A stretch of DNA of 64,000 bases from Haliotis rufescens (Eukaryota). The DNA is taken from the NCBI RefSeq assembly GCF_023055435.1, contig NW_025964268.1, positions 2,418,001 through 2,482,000 on the forward strand, written 5' to 3'. Positions 10,265 to 56,612 of this stretch are shown here, in pieces. The notes beneath the pieces are model-generated. The model did not search any database and had not been told where the DNA came from. It saw only the letters and a program-made list of their open reading frames with translations. The stretch's first letter is position 1, and every line of letters begins with the position of its first letter. The position numbers and the translations under genes are program-made.

Positions 10265-10910
10265 ACCAGAGGCGTGTTCAGGAGGGCGAGCGACTGCACA
10301 AGAGTACAGTGAGGCAATATCACGCCTCTCTGAATGGGAGGCGCGTACTCGCTCTCGCGGCACAGCATCCAAAATGGTGTCGCCGGGGATCAAAACAGCC
10401 CTGTCCACAAGTGTCATAGGTTCACACATTTAATTTCATCACAAGTTTGATGGGTTCATACTTGGATGTTCATGATAACAAAGTGTTTATTTTTATTATT
10501 AGTTACATGTCCCTGTGCTGGACCAGACAATCCAGCATCGATGTGTGCAATGGGGATATGATGACATGCATCACCCAAGTCAGCGAGTCTTATCACTTGA
10601 TCCTTACGGCAAACATATGGGTTGCGGAAGACCTATTGTCTTCCCTGATCATCACGGGTCAATATATTGAAAATGCAAAAATAACTTTTTGATGGTAGAT
10701 CTGGTCTAACAGATTATTCTTTTGTCATCGGTTCCATTCTCGTCAAAGGCAAACATTTGTTCAATGTGCGACGCCATCTTGGATTACGAGGCGAACTACG
10801 CTCGATCGCGAGTACACGCTCGATCGCGAGTACACGCGTGGTTAGCCGTGTTCAACAGCGTGCACTCGCGTAATATCACGAGCGCCCGCCCTCCTGAACA
10901 CGCCCCTGGA
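10265..10910. repeat. Inverted repeat arms (~10265-10385 and ~10765-10910) enclosing a family B fragment (~10519-10658)
   Basis: cagaggcgtgttcaggagggcgagcg pairs with cgcccgccctcctgaacacgcccctg, and atccaaaatggtgtcgc pairs with gcgacgccatcttggat. Confidence 0.7.
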
Positions 10911-38682: not shown

Positions 38683-38940
38683 AGTTTGTTTGTGTTCCTG
38701 TTTAACGTCCCACTTAGCAATATTCCAGCTTTTAGACGGCGGTCTGAAAATAATTGAGTCTGGACCAGACAATCCAGTGATTGATATCGTGAGCTTCGAT
38801 CTACGCAGTTGGGATATTATGACATGTGTCAACCAAGTCAAAGAGCCTGACCACCCGATCCCGTTAGTTACTTCCTACGGCAAGCATAGTCGCCACTTAC
38901 GACAGGCAAGAGTTGCTGATGACCTATTCTAACCCGGATC
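38683..38940 (-). mobile_element. SINE-like family B copy (hkb intron)
   Basis: Homologous to 16932-17193. Confidence 0.8.
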
Positions 38941-40451
38941 CATATCCAGTAATATTCCAGCTCGATTCATGTAATCAGGGCACGATGACACTCAGTCAGT
39001 CAAAACACCGAGTCGGACCACCCGCTCTTTTAACTCAAGTTACTGAATTCTATTATATTCGCTTAGGGTGGCCTAGTGGTACGTGAACTTGATGTCCTAC
39101 GTTCGAATTCGATATAATTTATGGATCGGTAGGTGTGTGATAAACTGCTGAGATGGGGTATTACATATGACTCAAGAAGTGAACTCGATGTACTTCAGAA
39201 GCAAGTCAGAAAAAGATACTGAGGTTGATTGCTCGTGTTAAGAAACCTATTAACTTGCAAACACAAGTGTAAGGGCGAACCCTCACTGCAAGCGGTTAGT
39301 GAAAGGATGTCACTCAACCGTGGCGAGAAGGACAGTGTCGCTCTATATGTGTACATATATAATTTAAATAGATTGAATTTTGATTCGGTGTCTTTTATCA
39401 AGTATAAACACATAATTTATTCACGATTTCAAAACACCGTCTTTTCTATTGAGTCCGATAAATTCTATGAATACATGCATAAAAGACACCGAAAAAATAC
39501 ACAACCCTGTCTAACCCCGTATCATATTTATGAAACATCCCGACCGAGGAGTGGTCTGCGTCTGTGTAATACATCTACTTTAGGGCAAGTTTAGCAGAGA
39601 GTGACTTTTAACTACAACCTACTCTAGACTCTAAAGCTACTTTGGAGAATTTATATTGCAAATTTATAGCATATATCAGTAAGGGGCTTGTATATCCCCT
39701 GGACAGAAAAAGATTTAGAGAGTTGTGACTACGCAGTCAACAGTGAGCGCAGCATGAACAGGGGCCAAAGATGATCTGAACTAACCACACCCTCAATAAG
39801 ACAACCTGATTCTAATATATTTACTATTTGTCACGTGCCGTTGATTTACAGAGAAGGGCGTGAACGGGTATGTTGTATAAACTCTTTATGTGAATACAGG
39901 TTTTAAGCTTAACGCGTGTTGTATTCACGATCATAGTGGGAGTGAATTTATCGTGTGTGTATGGTTAGGAAAATACGATGTCCACCATGACAACCTAATT
40001 TGTACCAGGTCATACAGATTATGACGTATGTCACGTGAGAGACTGGGTGAGGTTTCGCTTTACTCACGGCGCTAGTGCAACATAAGTGGGCGGTTCGTGA
40101 GAGACATGATATGTTGACGTACATCGCAAAACACTGGGGGCGTATTTGATTCGTCTGATCAAAATGTCATCCAGCTAATCGATACAGGCCAAACTGGAAT
40201 TGGTCAAATTGTAATGCTTGGAGGACATGGGTGATCTTGGCTGGCTATTCTTATGCTTTGACAATTTATATTTACATAATGTCTGTTATATCAAAACAAT
40301 TATTATGAAGTGAATGGATAAGGGAGTGACTTTGATTTTACGCATTTGGGGGCAATATTCCAACAATATCCACATTTCACATAACATACAATAGACATAA
40401 GCAAATGAATGAATGAATGAATGAATGAACCAATATATTCTCTTCCTTTAT

Positions 40452-49094: not shown

Positions 49095-49509
49095 CTTAGG
49101 CGCTGCCGTTCGCTGTGAAAAGTAGCAGCCCTCAAGTGTGCCAGAAAGTTGTGATCGAAGGTTCGAATCCCTTTTGCGCCCTGATTTTGTTTCTAGGTTT
49201 TTCAGTACCACATCTGTGCTCATAGGTTTCACCAAAGTGTTAAACGTCCAAGAATTCTTTCCTCCCACATAAAACTGACATGCTGTGATTTTAGTATTTG
49301 TTGTAATATGAGGACGGTCTGTATATAATCGATTCTGGACCAGACAATCCAGTGATTGACATCCTGAGCATCGATCTACGCAACTGGGATACGATGACAT
49401 GCATCAACCAAGTCAGCGAGCCTGACCACCCGATCCCGTTAGTCGCCTCTTACGACAGAGTGTCGCCTCTTACAATAAGGATGGGTTGCTTAAGACCAAT
49501 TCTAACCCG
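49095..49509. mobile_element. SINE family C fragment (+) abutting a family B copy (-, 49313-49509)
   Basis: Homology to other copies in the window. Confidence 0.7.
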
Positions 49510-49619
49510 AAGGGAAATCCTGTTCAAAGCGGCGTTAAATCACTCAATTGTCGTGTTACTCAGTCTTTTGTCACAGCACGGAAAGTAAATCGGTGGTTTT
49601 AGAAACTGAATCTACGATA

Positions 49620-55682: not shown

Positions 55683-56011
55683 CTGTGGAAAACAGCAACG
55701 TATACACATGGTCGAGTGGAGACTGCAATATGACTCAGTCTGTATTCTGTGAATATAGTTCTGTGGAAAACAGCACAGTATACAATTGGTCGAGTGGAGA
55801 CTGTTATATGACAGTATTCTTCGAATATAGTCCTTCGGAAAACAGTATTTTATACAAATGGTCGAGCGAAGACTGTAATATGACTGTATTCTGTGAATAT
55901 AGTCCTGTGGAAAACAGTATTTTATACAAATGGTCGAGTGGAAACTGTAATCTGCCTGCTCTCTGTGCATAGTTCTGTTGAAAACAGTAATTATTTTATA
56001 CAATGGTCGAG
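55678..56011. repeat. Degenerate 70-78-bp tandem repeat (~4.5 units) overlapping the AP24 exon 2 acceptor
   Basis: tagt(c/t)ctgtggaaaacag-like motif recurs with its ct at 55683, 55761, 55833, 55905 and 55975. Confidence 0.9.
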
Positions 56012-56261
56012 GGCACAGATATTGAAGTCGAATCCGAATTAATAATATACATATGTGCTATTAACCTAACAATAAAACATCAACAACATTGGATGACTGC
56101 TGGTAGCTTGTCAGAGAGACCCGACGCCGTTTATATTTGCTCACAATATCAATCACTGTCTGACCCTGGTTCGATTATTTACAAGCCGCCGTCATATAGC
56201 TGGAATATGGATGAGTGCGGCGTAAAACAACAATCAGGAAACGCTGTAGTAAATATGTGCT

Positions 56262-56509
56262 TGTTTGTTTGTTGTTTAACGCCACACTCAGCAATATTCA
56301 AGCAATATGACGGCGGTCTGTAAAGTCTGGACCAGACAATCCAGTAATTGACATCATGAGCATCGATCCAAGCGATTTGGAAAGGATGACATGCATCAAC
56401 TAAGTCAGCGAGCCTGACCACCCATTAGTCGCCTCTTACGACAAGCATAGTCTCCTTTCACGGCAAGCATGGGTAGCTAAAGACCTATTCTACCCCGGAT
56501 CTTCACGGG
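56262..56509 (-). mobile_element. SINE-like family B full copy in AP24 intron 1 (plus an opposite-strand tail fragment at 56165-56232)
   Basis: Homology to other copies; agtaaata on both flanks. Confidence 0.85.
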
Positions 56510-56612
56510 TCTACAGTAAATAACATTGCCAGAACCAAGATGCCCCGACGTCGAGCGGCGTTAAACAAACAAACATATTGGTTCTGTCATTGACGATGAC
56601 GTGTACTCTTAC

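What the first reader, a model, noticed from the sequence alone, without database searches (positions are those of the whole stretch)
56421..56509. Family B elements start with a covarying pseudoknot-like RNA domain instead of a tRNA head
Seen (element sense strand): CCCG-UGAAGAUC-[CGGGGUAGAAUA]-GGUCUUYA-GC-(A/U)ACCC-AUGCUU, then two tandem copies of a hairpin GYCG-UAAGAGG-CGAC-UA, then (C/U)GGG able to pair with the 5' CCCG. The loop and the downstream segment stay complementary while changing between copies: GGGUAG/CUACCC (this copy), GGGGU/ACCCC (~17155-17180), GGGUU/AACCC (~49483-49508) and GGGUU/AACUC (~38908-38935). The 40452 copy breaks the pairing. No A/B boxes are evident. Inference: a conserved structured 5' RNA domain, possibly a self-cleaving ribozyme or LINE-5'UTR-derived module that defines the element's 5' end. 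Non-LTR elements are known to use HDV-like and twister ribozymes this way, but I could not fit this to those consensus folds.
Basis: partly seen in the sequence, partly recalled or inferred. Interest (0 to 1): 0.7.

Follow-up and report, generated by a model that had tools for sequence, protein, structure and literature searches.

The report
RNA double knot: retrotransposons and viruses
The start of a very common short jumping element in this animal genome is a 70-90-letter stretch, predicted to fold into two stacked RNA knots, that also begins long jumping elements and sits behind the last gene of several unrelated RNA viruses; it likely blocks the cell's RNA-chewing enzymes and so fixes where the element begins, rather than cutting itself.

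Summary
The stretch is the head of a 252-nt, TSD-flanked SINE (about 1.5e5 copies by extrapolation), very likely the published 'LP-SINE' (PMC4758252), whose 70-bp LINE-shared head was proposed as a promoter and given no structure in the parts read. The motif lies upstream of ORF1 in 29 of 30 I-group LINE loci and on the coding strand behind the last ORF of 6 distinct RNA-virus contigs, tandem in 2. TSD-mapped elements start 1-3 nt before the first stem. In 25 of 30 LINE loci an HDV-like ribozyme directly precedes it and is copied along, which argues against the motif cutting, or starting transcription, at its own edge. Best reading (0.5): an exoribonuclease roadblock (xrRNA-like) of undescribed fold; untested. 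No Rfam match. This scan found the same motif and reading before on other DNA of this genome (e1-10133478).

The parts
56261..56512 (-). Whole SINE copy, 252 nt: motif head, body, LINE-like tail, (CAAA)n end; possible degenerate TSD (8 shared letters)
   Evidence: Haliotis LP-SINE consensus length 255 in PMC4758252 supplement 3
56506..56510 (-). S1 5' strand (segment a), the first paired letters; elements start 1-3 nt before its CCCG
56505..56505 (-). L1, single U
   Evidence: U in 15 of 20 families by the automatic register
56498..56504 (-). S2 5' strand (7 bp stem)
   Evidence: 7 of 7 pairs with two-sided changes
56494..56497 (-). S1 3' strand (segment b); with S1a, L1 and S2 forms pseudoknot 1
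   Evidence: z 5.2 against partner swaps; 84% of cells paired
56486..56493 (-). L3 with conserved AGAAU; tolerates long inserts on its 5' side in other families
   Evidence: invariant columns; inserts, 7 of 9 and 5 of 10 copies
56479..56485 (-). S2 3' strand
56475..56478 (-). P3 5' strand (3-4 bp), directly after S2
   Evidence: 3 of 4 pairs with two-sided changes, 90% paired
56469..56474 (-). P3 loop (segment c), 5' strand of pseudoknot 2; 6 bp with 56425-56420 in this copy
   Evidence: z 4.2; sequence
56448..56469 (-). 22-nt subfamily duplication of P3 3' strand plus a degenerate first hairpin
56444..56447 (-). P3 3' strand next to the intact hairpin
56425..56442 (-). P4 hairpin (4 bp, 7-nt loop) and following UAA: near-invariant 18-nt core
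   Evidence: used as search anchor, so its invariance is partly selected
56420..56425 (-). 3' strand of pseudoknot 2 (segment d)
17100..17197 (-). Another copy of the head
   Evidence: 55.9 bits
40532..40629 (-). Another copy of the head
   Evidence: 52.3 bits
63893..64000 (-). Another copy, cut by the window end
38876..38952 (-). 5'-truncated copy of the head
49429..49517 (-). 5'-truncated copy of the head
10570..10661 (-). Decayed copy of the head
   Evidence: 16.4 bits

Best explanation
The SINE head is a conserved RNA motif, predicted to fold into two stacked pseudoknots plus a fixed hairpin, that is shared with I-group LINE 5' ends and RNA-virus 3' UTRs, and it likely works as a roadblock to 5'-to-3' exoribonucleases (xrRNA-like). 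Shown: the covarying helices, the three contexts, the 5' ends 1-3 nt before the first stem. Inferred: copies are transcribed by read-through from host promoters; after decapping, cleavage or intron release, Xrn1/Xrn2 would trim the host leader and stall at the knot, leaving an RNA that starts at the motif; the LINE-like 3' tail would then recruit an I-group (Nimb-like) ORF2 protein for insertion. The motif would thus replace the tRNA promoter head (SINE) or a 5' ribozyme (LINE). In viruses the same block would yield a short non-coding 3' RNA, as known xrRNAs do.
For: Structure: 89.3% of cells paired against 72.9% shuffled, covariation 0.476 against 0.177, 0 of 500 (19 rows); anchored partner-swap test z 5.2 and 4.2 (20 of 41 families). 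5' ends: 4 of 4 motif-first LINEs start 1 nt before the 5-nt S1 strand; 33 of 36 SINE copies with a TSD (73 tried) start 1-3 nt before CCCG. Viruses: 7 records, 6 distinct, with RdRP or capsid Pfam hits; motif on the coding strand, behind the last long ORF, 17-122 nt from the contig end, no ORF behind it; tandem in 2. 3' UTR position and tandem copies are described traits of xrRNAs (PMC8374639, parts 1-2 read). HDV-like ribozyme directly upstream and co-copied in 25 of 30 LINE loci: the motif does not itself remove what lies 5' of it, as expected for a passive block behind a 5'-OH end (Xrn1's need for a 5' phosphate is recalled, from no call). The motif also precedes a tRNA-like head in one metagenome family (by eye; ARAGORN calls none) and in scallop MESC SINEs.
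Against: No experiment and no RNA end data: small-RNA runs gave 24 reads on the SINE and no sense pile-up. No 3D model, so the ring that defines xrRNAs is not shown; the fold matches no described xrRNA class. None of the 25 HDV-first loci starts at the motif, yet the motif is 93% identical among 24 of them while ORF1 is 63%: a mere backup barrier explains this poorly, and a second role (or exchange of 5' modules) is likely. A near-invariant 18-nt core suits a protein-binding site or catalytic core at least as well. PK2 is short or absent in 3 of 7 viral copies. 21 of 41 families were left out of the swap test (11 no anchor, 10 weak S2). Families are related, so z values are not probabilities.
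Confidence: 0.5

Rival explanations
1. A protein- or ribosome-binding element that lets uncapped RNA be translated or stabilised (works like a 3' cap-independent translation enhancer or the tobamovirus upstream pseudoknot domain; both recalled). The 5' end would be set by something else.
For: Near-invariant hairpin sequence; kept behind an HDV-like ribozyme that would make an uncapped RNA; 3' UTR position in viruses; ribozyme-linked cap-independent translation is reported for retrotransposons and RNA viruses (PMC13725137, passages).
Against: SINEs encode nothing yet keep it exactly at their 5' end, in several unrelated families; it gives no reason for ends 1-3 nt before S1; no ORF follows it in the viruses.
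Confidence: 0.2
2. A self-cleaving ribozyme of an undescribed class that cuts about one letter before S1.
For: Precise 5' ends; fixed core in a variable double-pseudoknot scaffold; LINE clades use 5' ribozymes (PMC5786205, passages); ribozymes occur in UTRs of linear RNA viruses (PMC13725137, passages).
Against: 25 of 30 LINE loci carry an HDV-like ribozyme directly upstream and insert with it, which efficient cutting at the motif edge would prevent; in viruses it lies in the 3' UTR, where a cut would part the genes from the 3' end; no Rfam ribozyme match.
Confidence: 0.15
3. An internal DNA promoter (the 'LINE promoter' of the 2016 paper) whose start site is the motif edge.
For: 5'-terminal position and replacement of tRNA heads (PMC4758252, section 10); L1Tc Pr77 is promoter and ribozyme in one (PMC3383444, passages); one copy lies between genes of a DNA-virus record.
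Against: Helices covary; present in RNA viruses with no DNA stage; 70-150 nt can lie between the two halves of S2; transcripts starting at the motif would lose the upstream HDV part.
Confidence: 0.08

Closest known systems
LP-SINEs (Hdi_LP, Hmi_LP, Lsa_2, Sgl_LP) and the shared 5' domain of Nimb-17_LMi, I-3_DR, RTE-9_CPB (Matetovici 2016, PMC4758252)
   Same: Non-tRNA head of about 70 bp shared with LINE 5' UTRs; length 252 against 255; TSDs; short terminal repeats; the scallop head in supplement Fig. S2 has the same hairpin core and, by eye, the same helices with other letters.
   Different: The paper proposes a promoter, mentions L1Tc ribozyme only as an analogy, and in the parts read gives no fold for this head, no viral copies and no partner LINE. 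The Hdi_LP consensus is in a figure and was not seen.
Viral xrRNAs, classes 1a/1b/2 (Flaviviridae), Tombus/Luteo type, Benyviridae type (review PMC8374639)
   Same: Pseudoknotted, in viral 3' UTRs, sometimes tandem; the protected end lies at the first paired letters.
   Different: No three-way junction closed by a 5'-3' stem; two tandem H-type knots instead; occurs in cellular retrotransposons, where the 2021 review says xrRNAs had not been characterised; resistance untested.
HDV-like 5' ribozymes of non-LTR elements (R2, RTE, L1Tc; PMC5786205, PMC3383444)
   Same: Structured RNA of similar size at the exact 5' end of elements; two pseudoknots.
   Different: Knots are tandem, not nested; no HDV match; a real HDV-like module sits next to it in 25 of 30 LINE loci.
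3' cap-independent translation enhancers and the tobamovirus upstream pseudoknot domain (recalled, from no call)
   Same: Start of viral 3' UTR; stacked pseudoknots or a fixed short hairpin sequence.
   Different: No shared consensus seen, no Rfam match; also heads non-coding SINEs.

Membership tests
LP-SINE | Head of about 70 bp shared with LINE 5' UTRs | tested here: met
   29 of 30 LINE ORF1 loci carry it upstream; ORF2 is APE-RT-RNase H; scallop 'Nimb-17 homology' block has the same core
LP-SINE | Variable TSDs and short terminal tandem repeats | tested here: met
   TSD in 36 of 73 copies tried; (CAAA)n ends
LP-SINE | No tRNA-derived head | tested here: met
   ARAGORN 0 genes in the window; TSDs abut the motif. 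A/B boxes were not scanned separately
LP-SINE | Identity to the Hdi_LP/Hmi_LP consensus | not testable with these tools
   Consensus is in Fig. 3, an image; not found in the supplements searched. Only length agrees
HDV-like ribozyme | Nested double pseudoknot starting with P1 at the cut site, catalytic C in J4/2 | tested here: not met
   No Rfam match on the head; helix order differs. Met instead by the separate 57-nt module upstream in LINEs (RF02682, E 0.0044, below gathering score)
Twister, hammerhead, pistol, hatchet, other Rfam ribozymes | Match to the family covariance model | tested here: not met
   No match over the motif at E up to 10 or up to 1
Self-cleaving ribozyme (any class) | Site-specific self-cleavage | not testable with these tools
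   Needs an in vitro assay; indirect evidence against
xrRNA class 1/2 (Flaviviridae) | Three-way junction with PK1 to the 5' end and PK2 | tested here: not met
   5'-3' closing stem at chance across families (z 0.2)
xrRNA (functional class) | At least one pseudoknot at the protected 5' end; 3' UTR position, often tandem | tested here: met
xrRNA (functional class) | Ring of 15-16 nt around the 5' end | not testable with these tools
   No RNA 3D tool
xrRNA (functional class) | Blocks Xrn1; 5'-phosphate RNAs pile up at the edge | tested here: inconclusive

The most novel reading that the evidence does not exclude
An undescribed class of exoribonuclease-resistant RNA shared between animal retrotransposons and unrelated RNA viruses, giving a third way (besides promoter and ribozyme) for LINEs and SINEs to set their 5' end, and supporting a promoter-less SINE made by nuclease trimming of host transcripts.
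Probability: 0.45. Interest if true: 0.88.

Novelty: new variant of a known kind. Interest (0 to 1): 0.7.

Why it matters
The 2021 xrRNA review (PMC8374639) names cellular xrRNAs as an open question, and the 2016 paper left the function of this LINE/SINE head and its partner LINE open. Here one 80-nt RNA makes both testable in a single enzyme assay. Whatever its function, a fold kept between snail and worm-type retrotransposons, positive-strand and double-stranded RNA viruses is a mobile RNA module of unknown class; if it blocks Xrn1 it would also be a compact new RNA-stabilising part.

Tried and rejected
Rfam: nothing over the motif. Antisense hammerhead: a CUGAAGA-like word exists on the other strand of abalone copies but not in the other families (by eye). 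Bacterial occurrence: of 10 genome-contig hits L284 and L293 lie inside opposite-strand ORFs and lack the fold; L288 and L292 precede LINE ORF1; L287 and L291 sit by simple repeats near contig ends, so these are likely animal DNA in bins. No phage match. Single-sequence folding is not significant for the window head (z -1.4; no pseudoknots modelled). One search used a mis-registered structure string and is discarded. The free long-range search passed 65 of 120 shuffles and is discarded; S2 pair counts are off by one letter and unused; no RNA holder listed; too few sense reads. The covariance model could not be run on the whole genome; only 600 kb were covered. The ORF1 tree places the 4 motif-first loci among HDV-first ones, on weak forks: order of gain or loss is not settled. 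PMC3308841 is not held. Of 122 loose viral anchors 14 passed a first filter; L056 and L119 gave no model hit and were dropped.

Full report
1. What is there. The finding lies on the minus strand at the 5' end of a 252-nt repeat (56512-56261) with a (CAAA)n end. Seven copies with the head lie in the window. In 60 evenly placed 10-kb stretches of G000 there were 68 head-bearing hits, 61 starting within 12 nt of the element start, about 1.5e5 copies by extrapolation. 36 of 73 near-complete copies (random and best-hit loci mixed) gave a TSD. There is no tRNA gene in the window and no Rfam family over the head. The host is taken to be an abalone from the match to the paper below; no call names it.

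2. It is a published sequence domain. PMC4758252 (seen: outline, passages, section 10, supplement 3 whole, supplement 4 part 1 of 5) describes 'LP-SINEs' in Haliotis (255 bp) and other molluscs whose first 70 bp are shared with Nimb and RTE LINE 5' UTRs, proposes a promoter and calls the partner LINE unidentified. Its scallop alignment carries the same hairpin core. The Haliotis consensus is in a figure and was not seen, so membership is very likely, not shown. Parts 2-5 of supplement 4 were searched by terms only.

3. The fold. With G000 LINEs and SINEs, 166 instances fell into 42 clusters; after one substitution of the SINE representative 41 remained, 11 lacked the anchor, 10 had a weak S2, and 20 were tested. 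Four segments can pair two ways: a (5' end), b (loop start), c (P3 loop), d (after the hairpin). Discriminating cases include CGCCC/GGGCG and GCCG/CGGC for a-b and CCUGG/CCAGG, CUCA/UGAG and UUCCCC/GGGGAA for c-d. On a 19-row MAFFT alignment S1, S2, P3 and P4 gave 89.3% paired cells (72.9% shuffled), 12 pairs with two-sided changes, covariation 0.476 (0.177), 0 of 500 shuffles, and beat all slid registers; the rows were chosen for an intact fold and the structure came from them, so this leans in favour. The model is two tandem H-type pseudoknots (S1/S2 with a one-U L1 and an AGAAU L3; P3/PK2 with the fixed hairpin in its L3). Coaxial stacking is inference. Two metagenome families keep the 5' half at the element start with 70-150 nt between the halves of S2 (7 of 9 and 5 of 10 copies; shuffles 1 of 450 and 2 of 500).

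4. Where it occurs. LINEs: a search of G000 with an ORF1 found next to the motif gave 30 loci, 29 with the motif upstream; two full-length ones tested encode APE-RT-RNase H, an I-group layout. One LINE tail matches the SINE tail weakly (27 of 32 letters, E 0.02), so this clade is the likely, not proven, partner. Four loci start at the motif, 1 nt before the 5-nt S1 strand, with 11-13-nt TSDs. In 25 a 57-nt HDV-like ribozyme directly precedes it (RF02682 E 0.0044, below gathering score); 4 of 6 such full-length loci gave a TSD at its first G or one letter off; one of the 25 has an altered 5' part; none starts at the motif. Viruses: 7 RNA-virus records (6 distinct) with RdRP_3, RdRP_4, S-domain, nodavirus-type or A21 capsid hits carry it on the coding strand behind the last long ORF, in two cases within about 5 nt of the stop, 17-122 nt from the contig end; two have tandem copies, with compensatory S2 differences between the copies of one. 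One 212,482-bp DNA-virus record has it between genes. The viral set is small because the collection is mostly DNA phages and exact patterns were used.

5. How it likely works. SINE copies start 1-3 nt before CCCG in 33 of 36 TSD cases, 17 at the same dinucleotide. Something at the RNA level must set this end. A promoter or a ribozyme acting at the motif edge would drop the upstream HDV module, yet it is copied along; a ribozyme there would also cut viral genomes from their 3' ends. A passive block to 5'-to-3' decay fits all three contexts: host read-through RNA trimmed to the knot, a 5'-OH ribozyme product left untouched (Xrn1's 5'-phosphate requirement is recalled), and a 3'-UTR, tandem arrangement like known xrRNAs (PMC8374639, abstract and parts 1-3 of 5). 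I give this 0.5. Against it: no direct data; the 93% conservation behind the HDV module while ORF1 is at 63% (the next 100 nt are as conserved, so module exchange may explain it); the fixed 18-nt core; weak PK2 in 3 of 7 viral copies. A translation or protein-binding role (0.2), a slow new ribozyme (0.15) and a promoter (0.08) remain.

6. Reads. No RNA holder was listed. Three small-RNA runs of a related label gave 24 reads on the SINE and 127 on the LINE 5' end, 104 of them one antisense 31-nt species over pseudoknot 1. This says nothing on 5' ends.

7. Novelty. Ten full-text searches found no paper that gives this fold, its viral copies or an xrRNA in a retrotransposon; subscription papers and Repbase notes are not covered. 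PMC5786205, PMC13725137 and PMC3383444 were seen as passages only; other listed papers as search listings only. An earlier unreviewed report of this scan on another piece of the genome (e1-10133478) reached the same xrRNA-like reading; my notes predate seeing it, but it is not independent support. Verdict: known sequence domain, newly resolved and well-supported RNA structure, unexpected virus link, function untested. Interest 0.7.

Noticed in passing
L328:712-768 (G000:C13 near 24750311) and 24 other LINE loci L296-L323: A minimal 57-nt HDV-like ribozyme with almost no P4 forms the 5' end of many I-group (Nimb-like) LINEs; this clade is not among the six listed with ribozymes in PMC5786205 (passage).
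   Followed up: partly
L288, L292, L294-L323, about 30-130 nt behind the hairpin: A further block (with a hairpin-like palindrome) is 95% identical among HDV-first LINEs and also present in LINEs from two other sources, but absent from the SINE; candidate promoter or translation element.
   Followed up: no
L288, L292, L287, L291, L286 (genome contigs): Animal-type LINE or SINE sequence inside bacterial genome bins, likely host contamination.
   Followed up: partly
L220, L228, L240, L245: Metagenome SINE family in which the motif is fused directly upstream of a tRNA-like head.
   Followed up: partly
L328:775-805: 104 antisense small-RNA reads of 31 nt with one start, piRNA-like, over pseudoknot 1 in run X20.
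   Followed up: no
window 56110-56290: Another repeat with the same 3' tail lies tail-to-tail with this copy, giving a long inverted repeat that scores weakly as miRNA-like hairpins.
   Followed up: no
G000:C445 31.1-32.1 Mb, C46 4.8-6.5 Mb, C101 8.4-9.1 Mb, C614 0.47-0.79 Mb: Dense clusters of these LINEs, several nested inside one another.
   Followed up: no
window 55800-56000: A short tandem repeat of about 60 nt upstream of the region, seen.
   Followed up: no
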